A stretch of DNA of 64,000 bases from Amoebophrya sp. A120 (lineage: Eukaryota; Protista; Dinoflagellata): the NCBI GenBank assembly GCA_905178155.1, contig CAJINV010000004.1, positions 6,848,358 through 6,912,357 of the forward strand, read 5' to 3'. Within the stretch, counting starts at the first letter, position 1. Every line of letters begins with the position of its first letter. The notes beneath the pieces are model-generated. The model was not told where the DNA came from. It made no database searches and saw only the letters and a program-made list of their open reading frames with translations. The translations under genes and the position numbers were made by a program. Positions 1 through 64,000 of the stretch are shown piece by piece.

Positions 1-1058
1 GCTGGACACAAAGCAGATTATCACGGCCGACGTAGACTATCTGGATGAGGGAGGATCCTTAGCCGGGATCGCCCTCCCCTTCAAGCGAGTAGACTGCCGG
101 AACAAGATCGCTGATTTTAACTATCCTCTGTGCAAAAGCTGTATTGCGCTCGCACTAATTCCAGGCATGAAGCACAAATCTTGTCTTTCAGTGAAAGCCG
201 CACTACAGATTTCAGTTGTAATGCAGCTGAGAAAAGTTGTCATGCGATAGCGATTTCTACTACTAGTGAAACTGCAGCGCGATACTTTTGCAATGCATAT
301 CAACGGCATCCTGCCCCATTGCACCACCCCTGTGTTTCCCGCCACCTGGGCAAAGGACCGAAGTCTGCGGCCCAAAGAAATCCAACACGTGGACGACCTG
401 GAGTTTTGCGACTCGCCAGAGATGGCGCAGCTTCTCCTCGACGCGGCCAACATATCAAGCGTGAAAGTGTCTGGGTCTGGAAGATTCTGAGACTTGTCAT
501 TCATGTTTTGCATTGGCCATGATGTCTGTGATGCATGCCCTAGCATCACAGATTTTTTGAGGGCTTCGCGATGCCTATTTATTTTCCGCATGACAAATTC
601 CCTCTCCGCGTAGGCAATCGATAGCGGTTTTGCAGGTGCAGCCGGGTGGTAGTTAGGAAGTGGGCCGCGTCTCCACCTAGGGGTATCGGCAGAGGCTAAA
701 TCTGTTCTAACGCCCAGGTATTGGCAGAGGCTAAATCTGTTCTAACGCCGACCCGCCAGGAGTTAAATGGTACTACTACTACTACGCGTAGCAAAAATTG
801 TATTCCCTCTGCTGCTCATGCAATGCAGATTTTTTTGGAATCCAAATTCAGCATCACAAGTTGCATTCTTCCAGACCCAGACATTTTTACATTTGATACA
901 ACAACCGGAAAGACGACCAGTTCCAGGAGTGTTGCCGCATGGTCGCGGTGTGTTACCCACACGGGTGCGCGCTCCCGTCGAAAGCCGTGCCGGAAAGCGT
1001 CGCCAAAGTTGTCACGTTCGGGTATGAGACGATGGGGCCACGTATGCAAGGCAGATGA
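1..1058 (+). CDS. Hypothetical protein, 3' part, split by two introners (exons ~<1-121, 305-452, 904-1058)
   Basis: Frame LDTKQII...KIADFN joins GILPHCTT...LLDAAN joins NRKDDQFQECC...MQGR* when each introner and one 5-bp repeat are removed; TGA at 1056-1058. Confidence 0.7.
122..299. mobile_element. Introner (non-canonical intron), TAT...ATA, diverged TIR
   Basis: Left tatcctctgtgcaaaagctgtattgcgct vs reverse complement of right end tatgcattgcaaaagtatcgcgct; flanks ttaac/tcaac; removal restores frame; internal tgtcatgc. Confidence 0.75.
453..898. mobile_element. Introner family A carrying a nested SINE-like insertion
   Basis: TIR tatcaagcgtgaaagtgtctgggtctggaag / cttccagacccagacatttttacatttgata; direct repeat caaca at 448-452 and 899-903; removal restores frame. 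Confidence 0.92.
614..784 (+). mobile_element. SINE-like (or 5'-truncated LINE 3'UTR) element with (TAC)n tail, copy 1
   Basis: Interrupts the family A consensus; 7-bp duplication cgcgtag at 607-613 and 785-791; internal 35-bp tandem pair 682-751; ends in tactactactacta; near-identical copy at 15180-15321. Confidence 0.85.
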
Positions 1059-1268
1059 AATAGTCGCGTAGTTCTTCCCGATTGTTGTCGATTTCTTGTG
1101 ATGCATGAGGCGCGCAAAAAAATTAAAATATGAATTTGAAAGCTACCTCTTCTTGTTCTGTAATGCAATCGGACATTACAACACACACGACAAATCGGCT
1201 CCACGAAGATGAACACGCGGATTTCGTTTTTCCCTCCCACACCAAACCTCCACGAAGCTCGGCTCGCG

Positions 1269-2275
1269 ATGGACACCTTCCGCCGCGCGACGAACATTTA
1301 CGGGCAGTTAGCCATTGCAGTGACCGACGAGAACGGAAACGAAATCATCAAAAACTACCGCGGGACGAAAAATTACATCCGGTCAGACAAGTCCAAAAAC
1401 GACTTCGCCAGAATCATCGAAATTACGAAGAAAAAACTCGGCCCGAACTTCAAGGAGAAGAAGGACGTCGTGGGCTCCTGCCCCAACAAAGAGGATTGCG
1501 AAGCGTATCCGCTCCACGTCTACGACTGGATGTTTGAACTGCACGGCTTCAGCGATTGCTCCCGGAAAGCGCAACTCCAGGAGGGGAACGTCCGGATTAC
1601 TTGGATGACCGAACAAGCGGGTGGAGAAGCAGAAGCAGGCGGTGGTACTGCTGCTGCTGTTGTCAACACCGAGATGAACGACAAGAAGAACGCCGAACAA
1701 GAAGAAGCAGGAGCTGGTCCTGCACCTCCTGCTGCCCCGACATCAACTACTACAAAGATGAAAACGAAAAAGGCGGACCGTACCGGGAAGGAGGAGCGCG
1801 AGGCGTCCAAGCGACATGGGCGAGGAAACCTGCGGCACCTAGAAGGCCGAACGTTGACCTGGGTGAAGGGCCGGGAGTTGTGGGGGAAGGGGGAGAGGAG
1901 CTACGGAAAACTGGGTTTCCTGCCCTTCCGAGACTGGCCCAAGCACTGGTGGTATCAACTGCAAAAATGTGTGGGTCTCGAAGAATCCGAACTTGTGATG
2001 CTGCATTTGGATTCCGAAAAAACCTGTAAGTATTGCATAAGCAGCAAAGGGAATGCAATTTTGGCTACGCGGAGAGGGCATTTGTCATGCGGAATAGGTA
2101 TCACGAAGCCCTCAAGAAGTCTGTGATGCTGGGGCATGCATCACAGACATCATGGCCCATGCAAAACGTGCATGACAAGTCCCAGAATCTTGATCTTCCA
2201 GACCCAGACACTTTTGCATTTCATAGCTGGTTTTTGAAAGAGCAGGACGTACAGCCGTATGTGGATTTGTTGGAG
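1269..2275 (+). CDS. Hypothetical protein with one introner; start (1209 or 1269) and 3' end uncertain
   Basis: Long ORF to ...DWPKHWW continues as FLKEQDVQPYVDLLE after removing 1953-2225; possible GT donor at 2276. Confidence 0.6.
1953..2225. mobile_element. Introner family A
   Basis: TIR tatcaactgcaaaaatgtgtgggtctcgaag / cttccagacccagacacttttgcatttcata; flanks ggtgg/gctgg; frame restored. Confidence 0.9.
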
Positions 2276-2508: not shown

Positions 2509-3691
2509 ATGTCGGAAGATAACTACTTACTTACAATCTTTCATACCTCTACATACCAGGTCATGTTCGGCGTCGTGAACCAGAAAGAATACGAAGCAGC
2601 GTTGCAAACCGGACTCTCCAAGGATGACGCCCTGCAAAAAGCCAGCTGGTTGAAGGAGCCGTGTACCCTGAGAATTAGTAACACGTCGCTGGATATCTAC
2701 GCGACCCCGCGGTTTGATAAAAAAGCAAAAGACGTGATCCACATCAAAATGTCCGCCCGGAAAACGGACGACTACCGATACACCAACGACCACGCGACGG
2801 GGCACTGGGGGGAGTTTGAGGAGAAAGTTAATGCGGACTTCAAAATTATGGAAGTGTCAGAAACGAAATCGTCAAAGTTGAAATAGTTTGTCATGCATAA
2901 GATGCAAGGCATGGAGTGCCTGTCTTGCCGGGATGGCAAGTGAGGCAGATTGTGAGCTTATTTAGGGTTTGGGATAGAGCTGCTGAAGGAGCATGACAAA
3001 AAAAGTCTTCTGTGCCCAAACAGCATGACAAATGGGATTCCGGTCGTGCTCCGAAAATTTGTCATGCGCCGTTTGAAAATTGGGCTTCCAACTGGTATCC
3101 ATTTTATGCATGACAAATCATTTCAACTTTGACGATTTCAATCCTGACAGATCCATAAAAATGGTCATGTCCGACGAGCAGCGGTTGCAGCAAGAGGCCC
3201 TGCAGAAGATGAAGCAACAGCTGAAAGACGAGCGTATTCTTGCACAGAAAAAAGAGTTATCCCAGAGAAAAAAGCTGGCAGGGCATGTTTGTCATGCAAA
3301 AATAGATACACAGAAAAATCTGTCATGGGCGGACTCATAGCATGCTATTTAGGATAATACGCAATACAAGTTTTTTTGTCAATTTATTTTTGCATTACAA
3401 AGAAATGTGACCTGCCAGCTTTTTTCTGTGTGATAAGAGCAAGAGGAGGAACAAGGCAAGAAGATGAACAACGGGAAAAATAGCAAAACGTCCAAGAGTA
3501 GTACCGCGTCTGGCGCACTAAACGTAAAGAAGAATCAAGAGGAAAAAGAAAAAAAGGTGAATCCGAACAAGGCGAAGGACAAACAATCAGCTTCTACGAC
3601 GACGAAAGCCAACAAGCGCAAGAAGACTGAGGAGACGGATGGAAGTAAAGAAAAACCCGATCCGGCGTCAAAAAAGCAGAAGAAAAAGTGA
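2509..3691 (+). CDS. Hypothetical protein with coiled-coil and Lys-rich C-terminus, two introners
   Basis: MSEDNYLL...VNADFK + MVMSDEQ...AQKKE + QEEEQGKKMNN...KKQKKK* join in frame after removing both introners; A-rich start context. Confidence 0.75.
2847..3157. mobile_element. Introner with ~54-bp TIR
   Basis: tatggaagtgtcagaaacgaaatcgtcaaagttgaaatagtttgtcatgcataa mirrored at the right end; direct repeat aaaat (2842-2846, 3158-3162). Confidence 0.9.
3258..3435. mobile_element. Introner
   Basis: TIR tatcccagagaaaaaagctggcagg / cctgccagcttttttctgtgtgata; flanks agagt/agagc. Confidence 0.9.
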
Positions 3692-7200: not shown

Positions 7201-10200
7201 CGGTTGGTCTTTGTGAAGGGGCGAATTCCCCACCGCATTGTACTGGGCGCGGGACTGTGCGGGGGTTATATGACACGCGCGGTCGCTCTTTCTTACTTTT
7301 TCTTCTCTAAAAAGTTGCCACATTCGCGCCTTCGACTTGGCAGATTCGAGCAGCTGTTCCGACGTAGCGCGCGGAATTGTTCTTCTCGTTTTCCCGGTAA
7401 GCATAGGCGCGATCTCGATTAGATAGTCCTGCAGCTGCTCCAAGTTACTTATTTTGCCCGCGCTGTGACGCCGCTGCAAGCACTTGTTGACGTGGTCCCT
7501 TGTTTCGCCCGGAATCTCATTGAGGATGCCCTTAGTTAGTGCCTTCCTCGCTACCCCTTCCTCACGCAGCCTCTGAAAGGATTTCACATCGCAGGCAATC
7601 TCGATAGCGGAGTGGTCGAAAGATACTGGAGCAAAAGGCGCAGCGTCGTCCCGGTTGCGACCCCCAAGTGAGAATCTTCGATGCGATCGAATTTTTTCCG
7701 CCTGCTTTCCCAATGTCAGCCAGTGATCGATTTCTGTTTTCCCTCGGTAGGTGTGGTAGTTGTCCGCCTTGAACCATGAGCCGGCAAGCACTAAATTCAT
7801 GGAAACCAAGTTTGCGGCAACTTGATGCCCCCTCTGCGAGGTAACCTTGCTCCCGAAGCCGCCACTAATGCAGGAGCTTGCATACTCGTCGGATCCTGCT
7901 CCAATGTGTGCATTGAGGTCGCCACCCATCAACAACATCTTCCACTTTTCTTTCTTCATTTTTTTGAAGTCCTTCGCCGTGTTTGCGAGGCTGCGGTCGA
8001 AGGCCTTCACTGCATGCGGCTTCGATCCCGATGTCGGCGCATAGTAGGCAGAGAGGACGATCTCCGGGAAAGCTACTGCCACTACTCGCTCTCTAGCGCG
8101 TACCAGGTTCGCTGGAATTGGGCCCCTGCCAAGTTGCTTTCTCAATGTAATTCCGGTGATGAGGATACCAGCTCCATTTATCCACAGCAAATCAAAATCC
8201 TTTTTCCGAAGCCATCGATGCTTCTCGCTGCTGTCGCCGGAGTTCTCGCGCCCACCTGGAACAAGATCCGCATCGTCTTCCGGAATGTCGTCATCAGTCA
8301 TCTCTTCAACGCGATCGCCCTGGTCAAGGTCAGCAACACCATAGTCAGAGTCATCCTCCACGGGGGCATCTCCTATCCCGTCGCCAACAGCATAGGAATC
8401 CTGCTCGTTTCGCTTTGTAAGTTCGGTGGCAACAGCTTCCCCGCGCGTTCTGGAAGAATGAAGCGACTTCTTGTGGTACTCAAATTCACTGAGCATGATA
8501 GCATCGTAGCGCCGAATGCTCGCAACACGCAGACAATGCCTAAGCCTGTCACTATCCCTGCCAGCGCCACACATGTTTATGCGTGCGAACTTCATTCTTC
8601 CGTGCCCGACCAGCGGCGGCGGGTCGTACACACTTTCGGCGAGTTCAGGGAACGGCTCCCAGTCAATTTCGGACTTTTGCTGCTCTTCCCATTCCTTAAG
8701 AAGCCTCGCCCTATCCTGTTCGATTTGCTTCATTGCATTTCTGTGGCCTTGAATTTGCGGGTCAGCGTTACCTCCTCCGTCTCCGCCAGTTGCTGTTATT
8801 GCCTGCGGCCGCACTGACGTGGAAGCTTTCATATTGACAGGCCCCACGTGAAGCGCAACACTACTGCCCTCAGGCCCTGCAGGCTGCTCTCCATGCTCTG
8901 GCAGTTCAGGTTCAGATGGCGCCGTAGTAGTGCTGTCCGCCGACGAAGCATAGTCTTTTGCTGATACTTGGTCAGCAGCAACGCAGCTATGCTCTGTGCT
9001 GTTCTGGCCTCTGCACGACGGGGCTGCAAGATCAACGCGGTTAACACCCAATCCCGTCTCCGCAAGTATACCGTCGTGGGTGGACAGCTGAGAACTATTT
9101 CCACGATGGCCTGTGGCCCTACTGCAGGTAGTTCGCGAGGACTCCATAAAGGAAGAAGAAGATCCTGAATATACTGCAGGAACCGTGTCTCCATCTGTTA
9201 GCGTGGTCCGTTGTCCTGTTATTTGTGGTGATTGCAAGTGATGTTGATTGGCGCCGCGCCAAACAATGCTTCGCCCTTGCTGCTCGTCAGTAGTTGTTGG
9301 GCTAATGCTCGCCAGTGGTTGCGCTTCTGTCTCGCAAGGAAGATGAGCCGGCTGCAGAAATCTGTAATGCGCAGCGGCGCGCTTGGGCGGCAATGCCGCA
9401 GCTTGTTCTGAGCCCCAGGTGACCGTAACGCCCAGCGCTGGTTTCTCCCATATGTCATGCGCAGCGGCACTCGTGGGCAGCCGTTCCACTGCTTGTTCTG
9501 CGCCCCGTTTAACGTCCGACAAAGGTTTCCCGAATCTGTGATGCGCAACGGCACACGTGGGCGGCAATTCACCTCTCTGCTCTGCTTCCCGGATGGCGCT
9601 CGACGAGGCTGCTTTCTCACGACTGAGAACAAACTCGGCGACAGGCTGCAGTAGCTCACCGTCCTGCTGCGAGGCACTTCTGTTAGCGGCGAGCGGCGAA
9701 GAAGGATGGATATCCGGACAATGGCACTTTTGAACGCAAACATCGCAATGCCCGGACTCAGCTCCTGTTTCGTCACTCTTGCATCCCAAAGAAAAGCAGC
9801 CAGGCCCTGTGTCAAGTTCATCCCCAAGCTGCAGTAAGTCACCATCTCGAGCCGGCGAAGAAGAAAGTAACTCTCGTCGCTGAACTTCCATTGTGTCGCA
9901 GGCCGAGGTTGCTGTAACAGGGTCCACAGTATTATTGAACGCGGCCCCAACAAGCTCAGGAGCTGGCTTCTCAAAACTGTCACGTGCTGCAGCGAGCGCG
10001 GGCAACAACTCCACTGCTTGTTTTGTTTCCCGGATAGCGCCCCCGGCTGTTTTATTGAGTTTGTAATGCGCAGTGGCGCGCGTGGGCAGCAGTTCCCCTG
10101 TTTTATCGACTCCCCAATTTGTCATGCGCAACAGCTTCGGCTCCTCCAATTTGTCATGCGCAACAGCCTTCGCGGGCAGCAGCTCCACCGCTTGTTCTGT

Positions 10201-10410
10201 TCCACTGATGGCGCCCCCGGCTGTTTTGTCGAGTTTGTCGCTAGCAGTGGCGCGCGTGGGCAGCAATTCCTCTGTTTTCTCGGGTCTCCAATTTGTGATG
10301 CGCAGCACCTTCGATAAGGCGAAGTAAAAACTAAAACACGTACCAGCGAACGCACATGCAACGAGGAGTTGCGTTGATGGATACAATGGCCAGCCTACTA
10401 TTGCCATCAT
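4270..10410 (-). CDS. LINE polyprotein: N-terminal repeats, apurinic-like (EEP) endonuclease, reverse transcriptase, C-terminal C2H2-like zinc fingers
   Basis: 2046-aa uninterrupted ORF. EEP motifs RINMCG, MLSE, YAP, GDLNAHIG, IDH, FDH. RT motifs IPLHKGKG..NYR, QFGFR, DLRKAF, G.KEGCVSSPLLF, LFADD. Zinc-finger-like CFWC..HLEQQH, CIPC..HAEDH, CRHC. Confidence 0.93.
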   Translation of the reverse strand: MMAIVGWPLYPSTQLLVACAFAGTCFSFYFALSKVLRITNWRPEKTEELLPTRATASDKLDKTAGGAISGTEQAVELLPAKAVAHDKLEEPKLLRMTNWGVDKTGELLPTRATAHYKLNKTAGGAIRETKQAVELLPALAAARDSFEKPAPELVGAAFNNTVDPVTATSACDTMEVQRRELLSSSPARDGDLLQLGDELDTGPGCFSLGCKSDETGAESGHCDVCVQKCHCPDIHPSSPLAANRSASQQDGELLQPVAEFVLSREKAASSSAIREAEQRGELPPTCAVAHHRFGKPLSDVKRGAEQAVERLPTSAAAHDIWEKPALGVTVTWGSEQAAALPPKRAAAHYRFLQPAHLPCETEAQPLASISPTTTDEQQGRSIVWRGANQHHLQSPQITGQRTTLTDGDTVPAVYSGSSSSFMESSRTTCSRATGHRGNSSQLSTHDGILAETGLGVNRVDLAAPSCRGQNSTEHSCVAADQVSAKDYASSADSTTTAPSEPELPEHGEQPAGPEGSSVALHVGPVNMKASTSVRPQAITATGGDGGGNADPQIQGHRNAMKQIEQDRARLLKEWEEQQKSEIDWEPFPELAESVYDPPPLVGHGRMKFARINMCGAGRDSDRLRHCLRVASIRRYDAIMLSEFEYHKKSLHSSRTRGEAVATELTKRNEQDSYAVGDGIGDAPVEDDSDYGVADLDQGDRVEEMTDDDIPEDDADLVPGGRENSGDSSEKHRWLRKKDFDLLWINGAGILITGITLRKQLGRGPIPANLVRARERVVAVAFPEIVLSAYYAPTSGSKPHAVKAFDRSLANTAKDFKKMKKEKWKMLLMGGDLNAHIGAGSDEYASSCISGGFGSKVTSQRGHQVAANLVSMNLVLAGSWFKADNYHTYRGKTEIDHWLTLGKQAEKIRSHRRFSLGGRNRDDAAPFAPVSFDHSAIEIACDVKSFQRLREEGVARKALTKGILNEIPGETRDHVNKCLQRRHSAGKISNLEQLQDYLIEIAPMLTGKTRRTIPRATSEQLLESAKSKARMWQLFREEKVRKSDRACHITPAQSRAQYNAVGNSPLHKDQPLPIDSRLKEVVTKLRPETVAELDAPVEAEELAQAIRHMAQGGKAKDVHGLTPQILKHFSDDSVEVIAGIISTEMDTRPLSELGEKFHLCRDIPLHKGKGARSSADNYRFLVISPLLMKLVTKIYSDRLYKALEAVGYFNAEQFGFRAGVGTLDSLLVFNRIREDFRHFSKSPTFYRLVATLIDLRKAFPSLDERLMEGVFRELGLGESRCWQVIRCSHRSAAHMFEDSIPLTVKNGTKEGCVSSPLLFLVCYSAVMRIFQLERRKLPEEAWGVSLSAMDKARHWERKEKIHELAKAGKRALLGENQDDTLIKFLLGRLLFADDATLFSQGQAAEVLKQVEDNSERIKKKLEPLNNELTELMSNVLNQCGMSENMSKRIMDDITKIQTRSLGVNTNDDADIRIKISKAWSAFHALKSTVSGLTGLTQQRKGELLIIVVRSIMIYGLQVRFVGEDHSNLLQTAETKMMKMFLGIPLWVHDQNQASSRSLRRRMKIPPIRAQVRYLQLKTIAHTMRKPKNDLVRAALIGKFYPRASPPAEADALGVPRLCLHDYYRSAQDLKEVEAREKKIPDFFGDALEFLRKECKLGPEALQLLWEPMAEADTRRPPPAENELSCYKVNKKVYFCLTRWAFIRQTAEDWADGDQLLKIELAAKYFSSSPLEKMKDEIRKEGEELGWDDDAVAEELQQMMKIPDGAPEQVFHSEECFWCSRSIIGFMGLDSQAEVDRREYFDELAENHPSCGMPAPLLEHLEQQHPARYPVADDPMLQRILEVNQHQDALLDQKVKTNILQRNPEIRELKKGGGKHAHKKIRCIPCGLTFVESAGAMEKHAEDHRSGNFIKVGYNSSLDKRPHGSQNPPSVCRTEYHYWCSATGRYTYGGQGKAWKICVPTDNMFTSRSGEQYLRCRHCRTYKLRYDHNDQEWHCQNRALNWYVGRMRKHQDKCKNKPARGKKKKKDEPEIEEGSDSGSGSCNTNDNK
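9350..10310 (-). repeat. Degenerate ~84-90 bp repeats in the 5' part of the LINE ORF
   Basis: Recurrent E(L/R)LP(T/A)xAxAHxK/R peptide units; each of several units carries tgt(c/g/a)atgcgca on +. Confidence 0.7.
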
Positions 10411-11167
10411 GTCGTGCTCCTAGCAGGTTGCACTCATAGGGAGATTTGCACATCTTCTACTTTATTCGGTAAATCTATCATCAATTTCAATGTCAGCCAT
10501 CCTGGCGTCGGTCGTTGTACCTCTACTATAATCTCGTTTTCGGTCGGCGTCGGATTTTTTGTCTGTCTCTTGCGGAATAAGTTTGTCTGAGTATGGTCAT
10601 ATCGGTTGTGGTGATGGTGGTTTTCGACGTCGTCGGTCGTGTGACGGAAAATCTAAATCATTTTCGGTCTCATTGTTATTTCGGTTAGGTACAGCGTGCT
10701 TTCGACTAGTTCATCCTTGGGCGTGCTGAAGCTCATTCGGTTGATGAGATTTGTTTGTCTTCTCGGTATTGCAGTCAACAGGACAACCAGCGCGATAGTC
10801 GTCGTACCACGGTGAATCTTCTGGCTCATGCATTTTTGAAGACATTTCTTCACAACGATTTTTGCGTTTGCACGACCAATGTAGAGAAACTACAAAACGC
10901 ACATGTTAAAAATTCATTATCATTACCAACAGGCTCTTAAGTCTAAAACTTTCGAAGACAAAGCAAGAAAGCACTTGAAAGTGCTGGCGCTCGCAAGTGA
11001 GACCCTGTACTAGTTTGAAACTGCACGAGCTTGAACTTTATTTTCCCCTGCTACGGAGGTGCAGGTGCAGCATTTTCATTTCGACACCGAAACTATTGAA
11101 ATAAAGAGAAAATCGAAGTTGTAAGTTTTTCCACCTTTTACTTCACTCGGCTGCGCGAACCCAGAAC

Positions 11168-12116
11168 ATGTTTCGTCCTTCTGCGTCACGACTCGTGGCC
11201 GGTGCTTGTGTGGCGGTCCCGCTGCTTGTCGGAGCCGACTCGTCGTCCCGCAGGGGGAACCTTCGCGGGGGGAAGAAAAACTACAAGCTTGATGCTTCTT
11301 CTGGCTACCAGAGCCACGACCAAGACCAGGAAAACGACGCTGCTTGTGCTTCTTCGATAGGCACTGCCAGCGTCCGCGCTTCTACTTCCACCTTGACGGC
11401 CGCGGCGGCATCTGCTCCTCCTGCGCCGTCGACTTCGCTGCTCTCCGTTGACCACGGTCACGGAAAAAAGCAAGGCCGGCACCACCACCACCGTATGGCT
11501 TGCTCAGCTGGGACAATGATCTCAACTGGTGGAGCAACTTGAATTTGAATTTGTGATGCAAAAAGAAAAACTGGTGGACGATCTGGCTACGGCTACTAGT
11601 AGCCTTATCATGCAGTCTGTACTTAGGATGACAAACACAAAGCCCTAGCACTCCAAACCGCCCTCGGAATCATTCTGCCCACTAGATTTACAATTAGCCA
11701 TGCAGAAGCAGAAATACTTGGAGTAGAGCAAGTGGAAGTGCTTTTTAGGCTCTGCCGCGCCCATTACAAAATTTCTCGTCCTGTGTAAATGGCAATAGCG
11801 CGGCGCGCTATTGCGATTTACGCAGGACGAGAAATTCCGGCCGGTTCCATTGTTCCACGACTCGAGATTTTTGTTCCAGCTTGGCATGGCATAATACACC
11901 GGCGCGCGCTACCTCCGCAACAACCGCTCGTTCCGCAGGGACCGGCGATGCCTCCGCAGCCGCAGCAACATGTTCTTGCCCAGGGACCGTCGGGGTCGTT
12001 GCAGTATGTCCCGCAAGCTGCTGTTGCACCGCAGGACCCCAGCACTGGTCCTGTTGCTCCGCTGCCCGCAGGTGGAGCTGCCCCCTCGGCGCCGACACCT
12101 CAAAAAAAGGGGTTCG
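11168..12116 (+). CDS. Hypothetical low-complexity protein with signal-peptide-like N-terminus; 3' end uncertain
   Basis: MFRPSASRLVAGACVAVPLLVGA...GRHHHHR joins RALPPQQP...KKGF after removing 11494-11896; probable GT donor at 12117. Confidence 0.65.
11494..11896. mobile_element. Introner containing an internal 67-bp palindrome
   Basis: Left tatggcttgctcagctgggacaatgatctc vs reverse complement of right end tattatgccatgccaagctggaacaaaaatctc; direct repeat caccg (11489-11493, 11897-11901); frame restored. Confidence 0.85.
11770..11836. repeat. Near-perfect palindrome (33-bp arms, 1-nt centre)
   Basis: aatttctcgtcctgtgtaaatggcaatagcgcg-g-cgcgctattgcgatttacgcaggacgagaaatt, two mismatches. Confidence 0.9.
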
Positions 12117-13025
12117 GTAAAAAGGCGATGATTCTATGAATTGCAAAAGTCATTTCGACGCACTTACTCTTGTTCTCACCAAAACGAATTGCAGTCATTG
12201 CATGACAGACCTCTCTCTTAAGGCAGATCAGCATTGCATCAACTTTTACATACTCCTCAATTTGAGAAAATTATTCGTGATGCAATTTCTACTAGAAAGC
12301 GCGTCACCGTAGCACTTTTGCAATGCATAGCATGCACAGCTCCAGAAGAGCAACCAGGGTTTCCGAGAAGACATTGACAAGCAACGAGGACCGTGCCCGA
12401 ATTGCCGCTGAGTGTCGATGTTACGAAGAGAGTGAGTGGATCCGAGCCTTCTTGATGGGTTTGTGTTTTTATGTAGAGAAAAGGGTTTATTCTGATTTGG
12501 CTTCTGCTTTGACTTCATTGTGACTTGAAAGAATGAAGGGTCCGGCGTCCTACCGAGTTCGGTTTTCATTTTGACGGAACATGCAATTTTAACATCTTCA
12601 ACGTCCTAGCACTTTCTTAAAAACTTCGCATCTACTTATGGAATTATGATCGACATACCAGTACTGACGCAGCTTCAACAAATAAGTATCATCATCGCAA
12701 ACTTGCAAATACCTAAAATAAAGTAAAAGTTCGTTTTACAATATTTTTTCGCGAATTTAACGCGCGTCCCAAGGTGGAGGACAACCGAAAGTATGAAATT
12801 ACATGATAGGAACATAATCTGCATGGAGATGGACAATGACATAGACGAGCAAAGGCAGAAAAACGCCAGTAAGTTGTCGGTGCTGAGTCACAACAACGAT
12901 GAAAGAACGCGAGAAATATTGCAGGCAAATGGCGCCTTTTATTTGCCTCCCTCAATTTGTTGCGCGACGATCGACCGGAGAACCCGCCGGCTCATGCAGG
13001 CTCATGTTCTAAATAATTTTTCCCA

Positions 13026-13060: not shown

Positions 13061-13988
13061 GAGAAAACTAAATGACTCCATATCAGAATCTCTAGGGGGT
13101 TCGTTTGGAGATGGATCGGAATAACAGGGGCGGGGTGTTCCTGTTCAGGCTGTCCGGGGTGTTGAGGTGGTAAGAGGTGGGGCCGGGGGTTTCGCGACCA
13201 GGAGAAGGAGGACGCGGGGGCAGGTTCGGAGGCGTCCCGTTTCCGTCCGTGTCCGTGCTCGTCTCCTCGGAGTCGGATCCCGTGGCACCCTGAAGCGCGT
13301 CGCCCAGCTTCGAACGAAGGCGAGCCCCAGCGCGCTCGATGCGGCTGGCACGCGCTTCGCATTTGCGCAAAGCCTTGCGCAACTTGTGGCGGGACATTTT
13401 GGGCATCTTGTTAAGGGCTTGGCAGTGTTGAAGGAACACAGGCCACGAAATTCAAAGCAAGCCGAAAGGGGCTGAGAATGTTCAAAATCCTAGGGGGTCA
13501 GCTTCGTGACTTGTGTCCACCAGCTGCCAACGACCTGAGGGAGATGGGAAAAGCCTCAAAGGTTCGGGACCCCGCCAGCTGTAGGGCTGGCCTAAGCATT
13601 TCCATGATGGGGATCAGGTCGGGCATCATCATCATCATCAGCAAGACCCTAAGGATTCCGATCATGAGGCTCCGAAGGCCTAGGCATTGGGATCGATTTA
13701 GGTCGGTGAAGATTCTGAACATTTGCATGCATGAGCAGCTGCATAATGATCTTCGTCAACAGGATTTGAAGATATATTCGGAATATAATTGATCCGGTGA
13801 ATCAGAGTCGACTTTTTTTTCAGACAAAATAAAAGCTGCAATAAATCAACACGCTTTCAACGTAATTGTCGCGAACAAAAGAGAAGAAGAGCAGGGGGCT
13901 TTGCTTCCTTCCGCGCTCTCTGCGCGCAAGAGAGAGTAGCGGAGTTTTCATTTGATGTAGGATTGAGGATCGAGGACAAGGAAAAAAA

Positions 13989-15584
13989 ATGTCTTGTTCT
14001 CTCAGATCTTCGCCGCGTCTCCTCCACGCGATTGCCTTGTTCCTGCAGCTCAATTTTTCCACGGTAGCCGGCACGGGTTTTTTCCTGAAAAGAACGAGGA
14101 AAAACCACAGCAGGGCGGAGAACGGGCAAAAAGTTACAGCCTTCTCATCTCGCACAGCCCGTCCCGAGCCGCCCCCCTTACGCCACGACGCAGATGTCGT
14201 CTTCACAAACAGCCTGACGGACGAAGTCCTCGCGACACTGCCCGTGGAGATCCCGCGGGATTTTTCGCACTTCATGCAGGGACTGATGTTCCGGCACGAG
14301 CTGCGGTCGGCGGAAGGCGCTGCGGTGGAAGAGGAAAAACAACTTGACTCTTCTTCTTCTACTTCAGAAACAGCAGATTTTTCACAAATAACAAATCCTC
14401 GTCCCGGTAAAGACGCGGGGATGATCTTCCAGTGGGAACACGACGATAACAACAACCACGGCGCGCGTGGGTTCTGGATGAAGCAGACTTTCATCGATCT
14501 GGACATTCTGTGGTGCGACTCCAAGAATGATTTGGTCGATTTCAAACAGGCCAAAGCCGACGACTTGAACGCGGTGACGCCGAGTCGAAGCGCGAAATTT
14601 GTCGTGGAGGCCCGGAAGGGATGGGCGGCGGAGAAGCTGTTTGGGAGGATGTTGCGGAGTGGTGGTGGAGAAGATGATAGTAGAAATGATAATCCTATCA
14701 AATGAAGAAGTGTCTGGGTCTGGAAGAATGCAACTTGTGATGCTGCATTTGGATTTCAAAAAAAGCTGTATTGCGTGAGCAGCAAAGGGAATGCGATTTT
14801 TGCTACGCGGGGAGGGCGTTTGTCATGCGGAATAGGCATCAAGATGCCCTTAAAACATCTGCGATGCTAGGGCATGCATCACAGACATCGCGGCTCATGC
14901 AAAACGTGCATCACAAGGCTCAAAATCTTCCAGATCCAGACATTTTTGCATCTGATAAATCCCTCGTTCGACAACATCAAGTGCGCGATTGATTTCAAGA
15001 ACGGGGAGACATCCTTGCTGGGCGGAATGATGCGGCCGCTGGGCGGGATATCAAGTGGAAAAATGTCTGGGTCTGGAAACTTGTGATGCTGGGCGGCTTA
15101 TCATGAGGAGGCCACAAGTGCTGGCTCAGCATGAGAAGTTTCTGAGCTTCTAGGTGTTGCCTATTCTGCATGACAGACTGCCGGGTGGTAGTTAGGACGT
15201 GGACCGGGTCTCCACCTAGGGGTATCGGCAGAGGCTAAATCTGTTCTAACGCCCAGGTATTGGCAGAGGCTAAATCTGTTCTAACGCCCACCCGCCAGGA
15301 GTTAAATAGTACTGCTACTACTTGCATGACAGAAAAGTTGCGCTCTTGGGTAACGTGCATGACAGATTTGAGAGTCATGCCAGACACGCATGACAAACAT
15401 GGACTCTTCCAGACCCAGTCATTTTTACGTTTGATACGGGAATGTAGAACACGACGACCACGATGCCAAAGAAGCAGGAGAAAAACCGCAGCAGTTCTTC
15501 ATCGCCAAAGACGACCTCCCAGCGTTCGGCGCGAGTCGGGAGGATGTGGTGCTGGCGAGGGCGAGGGGGGTGCTGGATTTTTGA
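13989..15584 (+). CDS. DUF192 (COG1430)-like protein with signal-peptide-like N-terminus, two introners
   Basis: Motifs LPVEI..QGLMFR..GMIF..FWMKQTFIDLDILW..FVVE..G match DUF192 as I recall it; exons 13989-14695, 14963-15048, 15442-15584 join in frame to TGA. Confidence 0.8.
14696..14957. mobile_element. Introner family A
   Basis: TIR tatcaaatgaagaagtgtctgggtctggaag / cttccagatccagacatttttgcatctgata; direct repeat aatcc. Confidence 0.93.
15049..15436. mobile_element. Introner family B (family A TIR, different core) with nested SINE-like insertion
   Basis: TIR tatcaagtggaaaaatgtctgggtctggaa / ttccagacccagtcatttttacgtttgata; direct repeat cggga; core matches 50066-50317 in reverse complement. 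Confidence 0.92.
15180..15321 (+). mobile_element. SINE-like element with (TAC)n tail, copy 2, 5'-truncated relative to copy 1
   Basis: gccgggtggtagttagg...ggagttaaatagtactgctactac, near-identical to ~641-785; replaces about 4 nt (gttt) of the family B consensus. Confidence 0.85.
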
Positions 15585-45251: not shown

Positions 45252-45315
45252 ACTATTCATATTCCAAATTTTCAAAAAAAAAAAAAATTCCAGACCCGGC
45301 CTGATTATATTCTTT

Positions 45316-46540: not shown

Positions 46541-46548
46541 ATATTCTT

Positions 46549-49206: not shown

Positions 49207-52196
49207 TCATTGTCGCTCAATGAAGCAGTGATGTATCGGTGGACAATCTTCGTCATCGTCAGCATCAGAAGTTGTAATATTACACGTTATCTCGTCGGTA
49301 GTTGTTGTGGTCGCATTTTTATCGATCTCCTCGATCTTCTCGCATGTTGTATTCGTTTTCGTCATCATCGGCGTGTCGAAAAGCTCGAAATCCACATGTA
49401 GAGAATCTTGTGCCGTCAAGATTTTCTTCTTCGGAAATGGGAGCCACAGGCAGTAATTTTCGTCGTGATGTAGAGCTGGGTCGACGGAGGTATCCTGTTG
49501 TTCATCGGTTTCGTCACGGTCATGATTGTCGTTTGTAAGTTTTCTCTTTTTCTTCATATTCCTCGTTTCCCGCTTTTTCATCTTCTTCAATCGTTTCGAG
49601 TGCACAAACGGAAACCCTGCCGCGTCCCTGACGTCTGCTTCTGTGAGTTTCACGTTGAATATGGATGAATTTCTATCAGCGGCGTCACAACTGCTGCCAG
49701 AGGTGCGTTCTTTAATGGGCGCCGTTATCAATGCGGGGGCCTCGGGCTCGGCGATTGTACAACTGTTCTTGCCGGCACCCCCTGGCGCACAAGAGGAAGA
49801 GCAACTTCTGCTGTCAACAATGTTTCGAAAGAAATTGGTGGGCGGAGCAGGTGGGTTCGCCTTTGCACGTGGCTGAGCAGGACGAGGACGTTCCTGTCGC
49901 TGGCCATCATCTAGCTCCTTGGTATTACAGTCAAGTGGATTTATCGCATGTCCATGTCGCGCATCAGCGTCGAAAATGTTTATTCTGTCAGCATCCCGTT
50001 CTTCTTCTTTCCATTCGTCAAACGTCGGGACTCCGCTTGGTCGCCGGCCCAGCCAGAGGTCAGCATATCAACTGTAAAAATGTCTGGGTCTGGAAGAATG
50101 TATGTTTGTCATGCTTGTCTGGCATGACTCTTAAATCTGTCATGCACGTTACCCAAGAGCTCCATTTTTCTTTGATGCAGAAACGCAGTTTGTCATGCAG
50201 AATAGGCAACACCTAGAAGCTCAGAAACTTGTCATGCTGAGCCAGCACTTGTGGCCTCATCATGAGACGCTACCCAGCATCACAAGTTTCCAGACCCAGA
50301 CATTTTTACATTTGGTACAGCATCCCGTTCTTGTTTCCACTCGCCAAACGTCGGGACATCCCTTGGTCGCCGGCCCAGCCACAGGTTCGCGAGAAACGTC
50401 ACTCTGGGGGGATCGCGGTCCAAGGACGGATTTTTCGGCGCACCAGAGCGGCCAACGTTTTTCAGATCTGTCTTCCTTGCTCCTGATCCAAACTTTTTAT
50501 TTCCAATCTTGGTTTTTTTCAGAGCGCGACCACCGCCGGTGGCATGTGCAGGTTCTTTCACAGCAAATTCGGCTGGAATACCGTGCAAAAAATTTCCGGA
50601 GAAGGCGATGTGTTTTCCTTTTCGCGGGTACGAAATCAGGCCTTTCGAGACGCCTTGTTGCGTAGTAGAAAGGGTTCTTTTCGTTGTGCTCTCATCCTGA
50701 TTTATTTTCTCCTGGTTAACGACATCAATACTCCCGTCGATGCCGTTGCCGTTCCCATCATCCGCGTTCTTGTTCTGTGTTGAGCTGTTGCTGGGGCTAG
50801 TACAACTTGTAGCTGCTCCCGATAAAAAGTGATCAAAGGGCACGGCATTCAGCACGATAGTGGGCGCAAAGCTGTTCGTCTTGCGGTTCGGCTCGGAAAG
50901 GTAGGTGACGGTGGCCAGGAAGGGGCAGTCGGTTTGTTGTTTATCGTCGCTGTTCATCTTCCCCCGGGCTCCTCGATTATTCTCAAAAAATTCTTGCGCC
51001 TCATCCCGGTCCCAATGAAAATCTTTCCCTTGGCGTTTTCTCGAATCCGCCACTTGGATCCACCACTCGACGCCCAACACATCTTCTGGTAGTTGAGTGG
51101 TGGACGCTGTTGTTGAAGCCGTCGGCGCATCATGTTGAAACACAGTGTCATCTAGCTTGAGATGCTGTTTCCAATAAGAGAACACCTTGTCCGCAAGCTC
51201 TTCGCAGGGGTTTGTCGCTGGTGCATCCACTATGCATTCCAAATACTTATGCCTGGGTCTGGAAACTTGTGACGCAAATCTACGAATTGTGGGCGCACTA
51301 CAATATGCAACCCGGCATGACAAGTTTTTGTTTTTGCGCTGCTGTGTGTTTCGTTTTTTGAATGACAAACTGCGTTTTTGCATGACAGGCAATAGGCCCT
51401 TTTCCTGCTCATGCATCACAGATTTAAAAGAAAAAGTCATGCCAGACAAGCATGACATTTTTGGACTTGCATTCTTGCAGACCCAGACATTTTTGCATTT
51501 GATATCCACCGGCTTCCACCAGGAGTGGCCGATGGGAAGGTTGGGAGAGAGGGTGGGAGCTGCTGGGGGGGAAAGAGTTCTTTCGGTGGTCTTCGTCATC
51601 TTTAGGGTTGATGTAGCATGCGTTGCAGCGGCTGCCGTTCTTGCGACACCTCCAGGTGGATCAGCATCTTTTACGTTTAGTTCGTCCGTGATAGAAGTGC
51701 CTGTAGTTCCCGTCGTCGTGCTAGAAGTATTGGCGAAAAGCATGTAGTGCGCGCGGTCGAAGAGGTCATCATCAATGACGTTTTTTACAGCTGCCGGACC
51801 ATTGGCACCTTCGCTCGGTGATGGAGCAATGCGATTCAGAAATTCCGGCGCATTTGCTTTATCGCCTTGCTGTGCCTGCTCCTGGTTCTTGGTCGCAGAT
51901 TCCCCACAAAAAGTCGCGACGTTGAAGAACTGGTCACAGATTCCCCACAAAAAATCTTTGGCCTGGTCAGCACATAATTGCGACGAAAAAGCTCGCGTGT
52001 CTGTTCTTGTCCCTGTTGCTGGTGTAGCAGTGACCGGAGAAATTTTCTCCTGTTCACGGAGCAGTAGACCCTGTTGGTCGCTTTTTTTCGACACGATGGC
52101 GCCCGCAGACGAAACTCCCGCTTGCTGGTGAGCAGCATCGCCAGCGGTTTTCTTCTTCGCGGCTTTTTTTCTCGTTTTCGATTTTTTTTTCGCCAT
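49207..52196 (-). CDS. 2OG-Fe(II) oxygenase-like protein, two introners
   Basis: GVEWWIQ..FHWDRDE..ATVTYL..PT..GKHIAFSG.FLHG..RVTFLANLW fits the HxD...H...R double-stranded beta-helix pattern; frame runs from MAKKK through both introner junctions to the stop at 49207. Confidence 0.72.
50066..50317. mobile_element. Introner family B
   Basis: TIR tatcaactgtaaaaatgtctgggtctggaa / ttccagacccagacatttttacatttggta; direct repeat cagca. Confidence 0.92.
51231..51504. mobile_element. Introner family B variant, stop-free and frame-preserving in the host ORF
   Basis: TIR tatgcattccaaatacttatgcctgggtctgg / gcagacccagacatttttgcatttgata; direct repeat tccac. Confidence 0.9.
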
Positions 52197-54291: not shown

Positions 54292-57200
54292 CTATACCAA
54301 AGAGGGCTGTGCCGATTCCCGCTGCGCTTTCTGTCGCCAGTCTTTCGGCTCTCGAGTCTGCCAAGGAACAAGGTCAACAGCACCGGCCTGCAGAGCAGGG
54401 TCTACTACTTGCTGCAGTTCCGACTCCTCATCCTCTTGGTGCCAATCTGCCCATTCTATCGGCGCCTCTTCGTCATCTCGTCCATCTTCTTCAAAAGTTT
54501 CATAGTATTCAGGATTTATGATGCCGTCGCGATAAAACAGACCACTGCCCGGATCCTCGTGATCTACTTCCTGCCCCATTTTTGGTAGCCGATCAGGTTG
54601 TGCCGTTGCAGCAGGGGCAACAGAAGATGTTCCATGATGAGCACGAGTAGGTCCTCCAGTTAGAACTTCCCCGGTGCTGTTACTTGCCGTTGTGGCAACG
54701 GTAAGGTTATCGCTGGTTTTGCGTCGATGTGGCGAGGACCCTGCTCCCCAGGGATTTGCCTCGGAGCCGGTCCACCAAGAATCGTTGGCTTTGTCGGCTT
54801 CCGCTTTGGCGGGGTGTACAAGTACCTGGCTGGGCGGAACACCGGTTGTTCCGTGCCAGATCTCTTGTCCTTGTGGCTGAAGAGGCGCAGTAGAAGCCGT
54901 GCTGGATTTCTTGACGAGATCTGTTTTTGGTTTCGCAGTCTTTATCTGTGGATGGGGATTGGAACGGAAACACGACGAGGAGAAAAAGTTGTGAGAGTTT
55001 TGCTATCAAAAATCGCAAACCCAAAGTCTGTCATGCGGCGACCCTGAAAAATAAACCACCAATCATAATCTCTTACGGGAGATAAAAAAGTCAAACCACG
55101 AACCTGCGACATCTGGCCCAGCCATGAAGGCGTTGACCTTTATCGAATGCAAATATGTCTGGGTCTGGAACAAGCCAGCCACTTTTCATGCGGTTTTTGC
55201 ATCTGCGCGAAGGGCTGGAAAACAAAGAAGAGCGTGACGAATTCCGCAGGAGCCTCTCCATTCCTAGTTTGCATGAGAGATTATACCTTCCCTGGAGACA
55301 AAATACCATCCACTGGAGGCGGCACATGTTTTGCTGACTCTGCAACACAGATTTTTGTTTTTCGTCGTTTCAGAATCCGCATCAGAAGTTTGCTTCTTTC
55401 CAGACCCAGACACATCTAAATTTGCAAAGCATAAGGTTCCACCTTGACGGGGATGCCTCGACGACCTCCTGCTCCTCCTCCACCAGCTCGAACGGTCGTT
55501 TGAATTGGCTCTGCCCACCCTTATTTTTACCCGGCATGTCCTCATCCTTCGGCGGCAGCGTCAAGTGGTGCTGCCCGATCGGGGCCAAAGACCCTACATT
55601 CGTTATCATTTGATGTTGTTGCACCGCCGGATAGGGCGAGGCGCGGGAAGCAGCAGCTGTTCCCGGGTAGGGCGCAGCGGAAGCGCGTAGTGGCGAAGAC
55701 GGTGCGGAGGTCGGGGCAGGTGCATTCATCGAACCGGCTCCCTTGATACCGCTCAGGAACGGCACTGAAGGAGCATGTTGGGGCGGCTGAGGGAGGTGTT
55801 GAGCATGATGAAGATGCGACAACCCAACGCCACTGCTAGTGGCAGTACTAGCACCTGCTCCCGGGGCGGGCGTCGCTGCGTGATACATATGTGCAGGCGG
55901 AGGCCCCGGGACGGAGGAGTGATAGGATTGTCCCGGCGTGAACTGTGTCGCAGCGGCGTTGAGCGAGGACGGAGAGGTCGGTGGTTCCGGTTGTTGCTGG
56001 TGTTCCACCTGATTGTCGAGGACTCCAAAAAGGTGGTTTCCATGATGCTGCTTCAACTGCTCGTGCACGACGGAATTTGTAGTTCCTGTACCAGAAATCA
56101 AACCTGGTCCGGCTGCTGCAGTGGAAGCGGAGGAAGACACCGCGACCGGAGCATCGGCATTATTTGCGATCACTTCCATCCCCAGAGCCATTTGCCGGCT
56201 CAGACTGTTGGCGTAGGCCTGTTTGAATCTTTCGTTCAAAGCGGCGTCGGATACTTTACTTTCCTTTCCGCTTGTTTGCTGCGCTTGCAGTTCCTTTTCC
56301 TTCTCCTGGTGTTCCTGCCACCAACTGCGCGCTTTTTGAATCGCCTCATTAAATTCTTGCCGCCGCTTTTCTGCCTGTTGCGCGAACTGCTGCTGTTGCT
56401 GTTGCTTTTGCTGCTGTTCCTGTTGCTGCGCACGCATGCGCTGCTCCACTTGCTCCAGCGACAGTGTTTCGTGAACCATGACAACCCCACTTGTAGAAGG
56501 GGCTGTGACACCAGCTTCGTCGTGCACCAGCTGCCCCTGATACTCCGACGAATGTTGGCCAGGAGAGGCGCCCATGACCGGTGCAGACGAGGCCGAGAAA
56601 AGTTGTTCCAGTACCTTGCTAGGCTGACTGTTGTCGGTATGTTGCACGTTTTCAGTGACAACATTGTTACCAGTAGCTGCACCTCCTTGTAGTTCTTCTT
56701 TTGGATCATTGTCAGCACAGACACAGACGTAGACCTTCGCTGCGCCGTCAATGTGCGCAAGTGCAAGGTTGGGGTCTGGGGTGTAGTCATAGTCGCCCTG
56801 CTGCTTCGCCTTCACTTGCGCATGAGCTGTTGGCGTACCACTAGTGATGCCAGCAGTTGCTAGTGGTTGTTGTTCACCAGCAGCTCCAGCTGCGGCTACT
56901 GCAGCCGCAAACAGAGGGGCCGCCGCGGCTGCGTCCGCACAGTACTGCTGCTGCTGCTGCAGCGTGAGATTGGGCGGCAGAAGCATTTGATGGGGTGCAT
57001 CAAAAGCAGCAGCTCCACTAGGTGTAGCAGTTGATGGTCCACCACCACCTCCCATGCTCTCCAGGCCGGGTGGAGCACCGGGCGGTAGAGTAGCGGTGAT
57101 CTGTGGCGAGGGCGTGGCGCTCACCGTCTGGGATAAAAGAGGCGAAAAACCAGCAACAGAGCTCGTGCCGCCCGTGCCCCCGGTGTCGGCCGGGATGAAA

Positions 57201-62400: not shown

Positions 62401-64000
62401 TCAAAGACGCGTGGAAAAGCTTGATCTCAGGATCTTCGATCTTGCCGTGGTCCGAGGTCGTTGCCTGTTTAGTTCATGGTGTGGAAATGCTACTTATAGC
62501 TTAATTTTATCTTTTTGTATTTGTTGCGTTTCCTTTTGTTGACCTTGACCCAGCAGTTGTTAGTTGTCATGTGTTTGAAGACAACAGAAAAGAAAAACCA
62601 AAATTCTGTAGATTGTTCTTGCATAAAAAGTATAAAGCAATATTGTCAACAACATCATAATACCTCGTCGTTGCTGTTCCTATTCAGCTTGCCCACCACG
62701 TTCAGCATCGTTTCGCGTTCAATCTTTTGATCCACCGCAGACCCCTCCTGAAGGCGCAGCTGAAACCACATGCGCTGATGGAACGTTATGCATTGCAAAT
62801 ATGTCTGGGTCTGGAAGAATGCAACTTGTGATGCTATTTTTGGAACCCACAAAAATCTGTATTGCATGAGCAGCAAGAGGCGTCCAGTTTTTGCTCCGCG
62901 GAGCGGGCATTTGTCATGCGGGATAGGCATCAAGATTCCCGCAAAAAATCTGTCATGCTAGATCATGCACTACAGGCATCATAGCCCATGCGAAATATGC
63001 ATGACAAACCTGGAAATCTTCCGGACCCAGACATTTTTGCATTTGATAAACGTGCTCACTGAACCATCAAGGCCGTCGTTGAAGATTTCTTTCGGAAATA
63101 AAGATGTTTCGTCCCGGAGGTAGGCAGCGAGGAAGTTTTGCACCACTCTCGATATTATTTCCAGATCTACTTTTGGAGGAGCGTCGCTTTGTTCTTGAGC
63201 TACTACTTCCGCAATTTTGTCTGCCAGCTTTACTCCTGGAGGAGCGCCAAGGGGGCTCGTACTTCTCCGCAGCTGTTCCTTTAACTCCTCCTCAGTCCTG
63301 ACTTTTTGGCCGTTGCGGGTGGATATTTGTCCACTGCGGTCCACGTGCGGTAGGAGAAACATCAGCTTGAGGACAACCAGAAGACGCTGGTTCCTTGCAG
63401 CAGAATAAATTTTGTTCCTTGATGTTGTACATCTATTTTCCTCGACGTCGTCGTTGTCACAAAACCCGGCGATCATCCCCAGTAGCGCGGGCAAGAGGTC
63501 CCTTTTCAGAAAAGTGACATACCCCGCCAAGGACAACTTGTTTTTGGGCCAGAATCGGTTGGACGACAGTGTCACTTGTTCGTGGCCATCTTCCTCTGGC
63601 TTGCTGATGCTGTCCATGTCCATTTCCTCTCGGTGAACAACAACCTTCCTTTTTTTAGTCGCCGGCTCTACAAGTAGGTCTTGCGCTCCTGCTTCGTCAT
63701 CCTGTTGCGCTTCGTCGACGTCCAGTTTCGCTTCGTCGTCCTGTTTATCCGCTTTATCATCCTCGTCCGTGACTGGTGTTCCGTGCGGCACTGAGAGTAC
63801 GTAGGCAGTCAGGGTTTCGCACAGAGCCAATACCAACTCCTCCAACTGCTCGCTTGCGTTCTCTTTTTTCGTCATAGCTGTAATTTGCTCTTCTACAATT
63901 TCAGCAGGTCTGGTACTTCCTACACGCCGGCGGTTCCTCAGAAGGTCAGGTCTAACCAACTGGACGAGCGCGAGGTCATACGCCGGGTGCGCTTTTGGGT
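59420..64000 (-). CDS. URB1: Nucleolar pre-ribosomal-associated protein 1 (URB1/Npa1)-like, 3' part; GT-AG intron 62465-62663 and one introner
   Basis: YNASLSTADQ, AYDLRVL, LLLASLG...VRSLALNVL, MLLDQVRNSL, FAMFFAKSAQ and EKRFLLNIV follow the order of conserved blocks of the URB1 C-terminal (NopRA1) region as I recall them; exons join in frame. Confidence 0.7.
62787..63048. mobile_element. Introner family A
   Basis: TIR tatgcattgcaaatatgtctgggtctggaag / cttccggacccagacatttttgcatttgata; direct repeat aacgt; join VSTF-HQRMW. Confidence 0.93.

What the first reader, a model, noticed from the sequence alone, without database searches (positions are those of the whole stretch)
122..63048. Unrelated introner families share an internal TGT(C/G)ATGC motif in both orientations
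Seen: cores with no other similarity carry one or more tgtcatgc/tgtgatgc or gcatgaca/gcatcaca, e.g. several each in 1953-2225, 2847-3157, 16790-17011, 17311-17519 and 50066-50317. The motif appears sparse in exons and in the GT-AG introns at 27-39 kb. Inference: this is a common protein-recognition code, either a transposase subterminal site or an RNA-binding site marking the intron for removal.
Basis: partly seen in the sequence, partly recalled or inferred. Interest (0 to 1): 0.72.

Follow-up and report, generated by a model that had tools for sequence, protein, structure and literature searches.

The report
Helically spaced boxes in jumping introns
Small transposon-derived introns of a marine parasite carry several copies of one short DNA word, usually paired three helix turns apart, and it likely marks where the still-unproven enzyme that moves them grips the DNA rather than a signal for splicing them out.

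Summary
TGTSATGC occurs 61 times against 4.6 expected, and 53 copies lie in 19 TAT...ATA elements (5.2 kb). The elements match the published introners of Amoebophrya A120; the six tested are missing, with one 5-nt target repeat, from transcript-like contigs. The motif is the core of a longer asymmetric box, aYYTGTVWTGC. In 361 elements found without using the motif, boxes form same-orientation pairs 31-33 bp apart (19 pairs, 0 opposite, 12 of 13 families; null 2.1), and the first box sits about 37, 48 or 58 bp from the end. 'Unrelated' is only partly true: 8 of 13 families align in pairs, though boxes stay 99% identical against 62% around them. Two tests favour transposition over splicing. Box orientation ignores the transcript strand (97 vs 89). 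Box conservation is strong on lineages that kept jumping and mostly fades at the tips, where the mutation rate equals that of the target repeats. The binding protein was not identified. The elements are published; the box is not in the passages I read. This scan found the box and its spacing before on other pieces of this genome.

The parts
122..299 (.). TIR element, 178 nt, 1 exact motif; target repeat with 1 mismatch
   Evidence: set by eye
453..898 (.). TIR element of the commonest TIR type, 4 exact motifs, with a nested insert of about 145 nt
1023..1243 (.). degenerate element, no intact target repeat, 1 exact motif
   Evidence: set by eye; an X1 contig piece begins at 1246, no joint shown
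1953..2225 (.). TIR element, 5 exact motifs, last two 32 bp apart
   Evidence: absent from X1 contig record 1 by its piece coordinates
2847..3157 (.). TIR element, family F6, 5 exact motifs, two 32-bp box pairs
   Evidence: absent from X1 record 1
3258..3435 (.). TIR element, family F11, 1 exact motif but four boxes in two 31-bp pairs
   Evidence: absent from X1 record 1
9336..10312 (-). 84-90 bp repeats at the 5' end of a LINE-like ORF (4270-10419) holding 7 full-context boxes, 5 exact, one pair 32 bp apart; not an introner
11494..11896 (.). TIR element, 403 nt, 1 exact motif, exact 5-nt target repeat
   Evidence: set by eye
12135..12329 (.). degenerate TIR element, target repeat lost, 1 exact motif
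   Evidence: set by eye
14696..14957 (.). TIR element, family F0, 4 exact motifs; box centres at 45+, 76+, 130+, 169+, 184-, 216-
   Evidence: skip of 267 = 262+5 in X1, X3, X4
15049..15436 (.). TIR element with nested insert, 5 exact motifs
   Evidence: skip of 393 = 388+5 in X1-X4
16790..17011 (.). TIR element, family F5, 2 exact motifs, 4 boxes
   Evidence: X1 loose ends at 16789 and 17012 read into the opposite flank
17311..17519 (.). TIR element, family F2, 4 exact motifs, 7 boxes
   Evidence: skip of 214 = 209+5 in X1-X4
17586..17856 (.). TIR element, family F0, 4 exact motifs
   Evidence: skip of 276 = 271+5 in X1-X4
18211..18531 (.). TIR element, family F3, 1 exact motif, 5 boxes with pairs at 33 and 32 bp
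   Evidence: skip of 326 = 321+5 in X1-X4
23517..23759 (.). degenerate element inside a kinase-like gene, 1 exact motif
   Evidence: set by eye
50066..50317 (.). TIR element of the commonest TIR type, 5 exact motifs
51231..51504 (.). TIR element of the commonest TIR type, 4 exact motifs, exact target repeat
   Evidence: set by eye
55141..55433 (.). older element of the commonest TIR type, no exact motif, four variant boxes
   Evidence: set by eye
62787..63048 (.). TIR element, family F0, 4 exact motifs, same six-box map as 14696

Best explanation
The motif is the core of an 11-base box repeated inside non-autonomous TIR transposons that act as introns, and it likely is the double-stranded DNA site that a transposase (or a cofactor dedicated to it) binds to assemble the complex that moves them. 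Shown: TAT...ATA ends, 5-bp target repeat, removal from transcript-like contigs with one repeat, several boxes per element, same-orientation pairs 31-33 bp apart, a first box about 37, 48 or 58 bp from the end, and conservation that is strong on branches that kept transposing and weak at the tips. Inferred: a multimeric protein would bind boxes on one face of the helix (three turns apart) and in register with the end, as the BED domains of Hermes bind its subterminal repeats; copies that lose boxes would stop jumping but still be spliced. That one enzyme serves all families, and that it is hAT-like, is untested here.
For: Enrichment: (18.7 vs 0.54 boxes/kb). Spacing: 19 same-orientation and 0 opposite pairs at 31-33 bp among 65 consensus sites, 12 of 13 families, null mean 2.1, 0 of 20,000 permutations reach it; 297 of 361 elements hold such a pair. 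End phasing: R = 0.64 at 10.5 bp over 25 ends, p = 5e-5. Strand: 97 vs 89 elements, 47 ties, p = 0.61; private changes in boxes 0.021 and 0.027 for the two orientations on the RNA, both under 0.045 elsewhere. Selection across families: 135 of 136 vs 295 of 472. Relaxation in 239 elements: shared changes 0.015 vs 0.071; private changes box/other 0.39 in small subfamilies, 0.98 in middle, 0.73 in the largest, where the box rate 0.021 equals the target-repeat mismatch rate 0.021. Precedent: Hermes subterminal repeats are asymmetric, in both orientations, and their phasing is crucial (PMC10368747, passages).
Against: No transposase was found in the window or by Pfam in 25 long ORFs of the fetched loci; Farhat et al. 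report none in A120. A deficit of private changes remains in the largest subfamilies (ratio 0.73, p = 0.006; youngest-quartile bootstrap 0.49-0.99), which could be weak selection after insertion. An earlier exact-motif count on 179 elements leaned to one RNA orientation, 257 vs 203 (sites not independent, one false merge included). Windows between paired boxes are not clearly poorer in indels: 8 of 13 above their family mean. Families are not independent (8 of 13 related), so the p-values are too small. The box also occurs in a LINE-like element, which needs no TIR transposase. Inner TIRs differ between families, which one enzyme must tolerate.
Confidence: 0.7

Rival explanations
1. A host DNA-binding protein (chromatin or transcription factor, or a domesticated transposase) reads the box; introners and a LINE have both recruited it, for mobility or to mark the DNA for co-transcriptional splicing.
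For: Seven full-context boxes in the 5' repeats of the LINE-like ORF, in two reading frames, one pair 32 bp apart; the chance that one 87-nt unit holds such a box is about 0.3%. One box is shared by families whose inner TIRs differ. All DNA-level evidence fits.
Against: The LINE boxes reduce to one or two events by duplication and are not better conserved than other parts of the repeat (5 of 7 monomers). Boxes are rare outside elements (0.54/kb in 443 kb), so it is no general promoter motif. A splicing-mark version predicts protection after insertion, which is weak.
Confidence: 0.14
2. The box is an RNA signal bound by a splicing factor, or an arm of internal hairpins, that marks the intron for removal in a lineage lacking U1 snRNA.
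For: The elements are removed exactly without GT-AG and U1 was not detected (PMC7789003). The box is pseudo-palindromic, so both strands look alike, and in 12 of 13 consensus folds boxes pair with other boxes (probability 0.23-0.80). Only 1 of 361 elements lacks a strong box. A residual constraint remains at the tips.
Against: The box is strictly asymmetric (2.18 per element against 0.04 and 0.20 for the two symmetric forms), yet elements lie either way in transcripts: family F4 has all six boxes one way and is 11 vs 7, with no box-box pairing in its fold. No extra complementarity between paired boxes. Fixed 31-33 and 10.5 spacing suits a DNA helix. Most constraint lies on internal branches.
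Confidence: 0.11
3. The boxes are neutral relics of one ancestral element built from a 32-bp repeat, shared by descent only.
For: Eight of 13 families align in pairs at 62-72% over 69-237 nt; 9 of 19 window elements are one TIR type.
Against: Box cores are 99% identical where the surrounding core is 62% (local alignments are partly anchored by the boxes, so this is inflated), and shared changes within families are nearly five times rarer in boxes. F0, F1, F7, F10 and F11 show no long alignment yet carry boxes.
Confidence: 0.05

Closest known systems
Introner elements / non-canonical introns of Amoebophrya sp. A120 (Farhat et al. 2021, PMC7789003; Gozashti et al. 2025, PMC12130899)
   Same: Ends begin with TAT, seven variable letters, then an A run; short direct repeats at the boundaries; non-GT-AG removal; similar lengths and 'TIR DNA, unknown' classing.
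   Different: The passages, section 16 and supplement text I saw describe only terminal and direct repeats, not an internal box or its spacing. Here the repeat is exactly 5 bp and sequence-free. Figures were not visible.
Subterminal repeats of hAT transposons (Hermes STRs bound by BED domains; PMC10368747) and 5-bp-TSD hAT5 families (PMC12730594)
   Same: [quoted passage not shown]
   Different: The Hermes site is a 4-mer within one element family; here an 11-base box with a 31-33 bp pair rule is shared by families with different inner TIRs and fills the whole element. No hAT transposase was seen here.
MITEs (non-autonomous TIR elements; defined in PMC7789003 section 16)
   Same: Short, non-coding, TIRs, target duplication, many diverged copies, preference for GC-rich sites.
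   Different: They sit in coding exons in either orientation and are removed from RNA with one target repeat.

Membership tests
Amoebophrya A120 introner elements | IR starting TAT, seven variable nt, then three or more A | tested here: met
   end logo, A 0.66-0.90 at positions 11-15; TAT itself was a search criterion
Amoebophrya A120 introner elements | 3-5 nt direct repeat at the exon boundary | tested here: met
   5-nt repeat, exact in 315 and one mismatch in 52 of 367 candidates (a search criterion); 'both = 5' at RNA joints
Amoebophrya A120 introner elements | removed from RNA without GT-AG | tested here: met
   6 of 6 elements in 13800-19200 (5 joints, 1 by loose ends); the same runs skip a GT-AG intron; one sample, RNA status is the tool's guess, joint sides 20-58 nt
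Amoebophrya A120 introner elements | repeated families | tested here: met
   13 clusters of 2-161 copies; X5 depth on elements far above exons
Amoebophrya A120 introner elements | host is strain A120 | not testable with these tools
   inferred from the published end rule; no genome is held; earlier notes say the same
Transposase subterminal repeats (hAT type) | several short sites near the ends, fixed relative to the TIR and each other | tested here: met
Transposase subterminal repeats (hAT type) | needed for transposition | tested here: inconclusive
   indirect only: constraint on internal branches, relaxed at tips
Transposase subterminal repeats (hAT type) | bound by the transposase DNA-binding domain | not testable with these tools
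   needs binding assays
hAT superfamily | cognate hAT transposase in an element with the same ends | tested here: inconclusive
   none among 25 long ORFs or long TIR pairs in my loci; reported only in unreviewed earlier notes
hAT superfamily | 8-bp TSD (5 bp in hAT5) | tested here: met
   5 bp fits hAT5 only; not diagnostic
RNA cis splicing signal | orientation fixed relative to the transcript | tested here: not met
   97 vs 89, p = 0.61
RNA cis splicing signal | protected from mutation after insertion | tested here: inconclusive
   ratio 0.73-0.98 in larger subfamilies; weak residual cannot be excluded

The most novel reading that the evidence does not exclude
One DNA-binding module reads a helically phased box code in every introner family, whatever its inner TIR: boxes license movement while the family-specific TIR only has to pair with itself to guide splicing.
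Probability: 0.25. Interest if true: 0.75.

Novelty: new variant of a known kind. Interest (0 to 1): 0.52.

Why it matters
Amoebophrya A120 gained tens of thousands of non-canonical introns, and the published genome paper found no transposase and left both mobilisation and splicing open. A conserved, phased box gives a DNA bait for the mobilising protein, a filter for candidate autonomous elements, and a way to separate the two jobs: mutate boxes and test jumping against splicing. The tip-relaxation result says which experiment to run first.

Tried and rejected
Whole genome not held; metagenome records not searchable by handle, so no orthologous copies and no direct allele test; no flank matches between different loci. 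Hairpin between paired boxes: complementarity outside the box flanks 0.18-0.43, no common fold; rejected. Indel constraint between paired boxes: inconclusive. Copying between left and right TIR: rare variants mirrored in 4 of 155 against about 2.6 expected; common variants covary in some families, which subfamily structure can explain. Viral source: TIR absent from viral contigs; the box-pair pattern gave 59 matches, 46 at 33 nt, one weak AT-rich TIR-like hit, and the richest locus examined is a Cys-rich coding repeat; read as chance or coding repeats. Transposase search: 25 long ORFs, no transposase family; 17 had no Pfam match; three long TIR pairs, one a 1.1-kb non-autonomous element, two not credible. 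LINE repeats do not align with any family beyond the box and have no homolog in the loci. No run on record as RNA was listed as a holder; raw-read runs X7 and X8 laid only 91 and 2 partial reads. Two of 363 elements were false merges and were dropped. Literature: Roy et al. 2023 not held; searches showed no paper on the box.

Full report
Observation. TGTSATGC matches 61 times on both strands against 4.62 +/- 1.97 in shuffles. Nineteen TIR elements cover 5,204 nt and hold 53 of the 61; twelve were found by a scan that ignored the motif (which also gave three low-score rows I discarded) and seven by eye. Of the eight outside copies, five lie in the 5' repeats of a LINE-like ORF, two in GT-AG introns and one in an exon. 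The five named cores hold 5, 5, 2, 4 and 5 copies.

What the elements are. They begin TAT and end ATA, have TIRs of about 28 nt and a 5-nt target repeat with no consensus. In contigs of runs X1-X4, five elements in 13800-19200 are skipped by exactly their length plus 5 and the sixth shows loose ends reading across. The same runs skip a GT-AG intron, so they behave as spliced RNA, though they are one sample and their RNA status is a guess. The end rule matches the description of Amoebophrya A120 introners in Farhat et al. (PMC7789003; passages, abstract, section 16 and a supplement word search). The organism is inferred, not shown.

A larger, motif-blind sample. A TIR pattern of the commonest family fetched 145 loci of 151 listed from one public metagenome assembly (about 530 estimated). 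The TIR/target-repeat scan gave 367 candidates and 363 non-overlapping elements, 11 from the window; two were false merges, leaving 361. They form 13 clusters of two or more plus singletons; F0 (161) is over-sampled by design and heterogeneous, so I weighted by family. Window elements are 80-92% identical to their best locus match (9 with a long match). 326 of 361 hold an exact motif. The trained box is aYYTGTVWTGCw, at 18.7/kb inside against 0.54/kb in 443 kb outside elements and their fragments (the model was trained on the elements). It is pseudo-palindromic but asymmetric: 2.18 per element against 0.04 and 0.20 for the symmetric forms.

Architecture. Among 65 consensus sites, 19 same-orientation pairs and no opposite pair lie 31-33 bp apart, in 12 of 13 families; random placement gives 2.1 and never more than 9 in 20,000 trials. 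First boxes cluster at 37-38, 47-49 and 57-60 bp from the end (R = 0.64 at 10.5 bp, 25 ends, p = 5e-5; the peak in period is broad). I reached the pair rule before consulting earlier notes; the end phasing was a lead from e1-10626161, tested here. Indels are not clearly rarer between paired boxes (8 of 13 windows above their family mean), and the spacer forms no common hairpin.

Are the families unrelated? Partly not. With boxes masked, 5 of 78 family pairs score z 3.9-10.1. Unmasked alignments link F3-F6, F6-F8, F8-F12, F12-F5, F5-F4, F4-F2 and F2-F9 at 62-72% over 69-237 nt. F0, F1, F7, F10 and F11 show no long alignment. In those seven alignments box cores match at 135 of 136 positions and the rest at 295 of 472 (inflated by anchoring). 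Descent supplies many boxes; selection keeps them. The p-values above overstate independence.

DNA or RNA? Host strand was called for 233 elements (codon model; 142 of 144 agree with an ORF and skew call). 97 show more boxes one way on the RNA, 89 the other, 47 tie (p = 0.61). F4, with six boxes in one orientation, lies 11 vs 7. Private changes are equally rare in both orientations (0.021, 0.027; p = 0.16). A first exact-motif tally leaned 257 vs 203. In predicted folds boxes often pair with other boxes, but not in F4.

When does selection act? In 239 elements of subfamilies with four or more members, shared differences are 0.015 in boxes against 0.071 elsewhere. Private differences give box/other ratios of 0.39 in small subfamilies (84 elements), 0.98 in middle ones (29) and 0.73 in the largest (126; p = 0.006), where the box rate, 0.021, equals the mismatch rate between the two target repeats, 0.021, which can only build up after the last insertion. 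Split-half ranking gives 0.74, 0.75, 0.58 and 0.41 from least to most diverged. Boxes are therefore guarded mainly on lineages that went on transposing and decay at about the post-insertion rate afterwards. The residual deficit could be hidden transposition steps or weak selection after insertion; the target-repeat rate is an approximate yardstick because part of it is exonic and copies with two or more mismatches were not sampled.

Mechanism. Most likely (0.7) the boxes are subterminal sites on double-stranded DNA for the transposition complex. [quoted passage not shown] The hAT lead comes from unreviewed earlier notes on 10-11 kb elements with the same ends; I could not test it, and found no transposase myself. 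The LINE's seven boxes keep a host factor open (0.14) but reduce to one or two events. An RNA signal (0.11) and descent alone (0.05) fit less well.

Known or new. The elements are published. The box was not in what I saw of PMC7789003, PMC12130899 (passages; 12 of 14 supplements searched for the organism, 22 of 58 A120 table rows), PMC9860276, PMC11282704 or PMC11453091 (passages), nor in search listings. Roy et al. 2023 is not held and figures were not visible, so print novelty is not assured. This scan noted the box and spacing at least four times on other pieces of the genome. Added here: partial homology of the families, the strand test and the tip-relaxation test. Verdict: real feature, new variant of a known kind, interest 0.52.

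Noticed in passing
window 4270-10419 (-): Intact 2,049-codon LINE-like ORF with RVT_1 between two + strand genes; its 5' 84-90 bp repeats carry seven boxes in two reading frames; no X1 cover at 4481-8960.
   Followed up: partly
window about 641-783 and 15180-15322: A nested insert of about 145 nt with an internal tandem repeat sits in two elements of the commonest TIR type (95.8% identical); 15049-15436 is still removed exactly.
   Followed up: partly
window 23517-23759: Degenerate element without target repeat in a kinase-like gene; the downstream exon seems to have a one-base frame problem near 23790, perhaps a homopolymer error.
   Followed up: no
window 54947-55103 (-): Apparent GT-AG intron holding one full-context box at 55033; may be an introner remnant.
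   Followed up: no
window 41000-49000: Non-coding stretch of GC-rich and AT-rich blocks with several internal direct and inverted repeats; few boxes (0.62/kb); no credible gene.
   Followed up: partly
window 26850-28700 and 30830-32400: Two related-looking coding segments with short GT-AG introns and no TIR elements, by eye a local duplication.
   Followed up: no
families F1, F2, F9 (window 17311-17519): A second module: three boxes 18 bp apart; weaker opposite-orientation boxes often lie 14-15 bp after a strong one, giving a loose 16-bp lattice.
   Followed up: partly
L016:505-1608: 1.1-kb element with F6-like ends, boxes near the left end and a repeat-rich non-coding-looking interior.
   Followed up: no
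L194, L199: Viral contigs with 22 exact motif copies each; L194 translates to a Cys-Asp-rich repeat.
   Followed up: partly
window 17581 and 17858: A second joint with only four shared letters appears in X1-X4 beside the five-letter joint; allele differences in target repeats could place the cut site.
   Followed up: no
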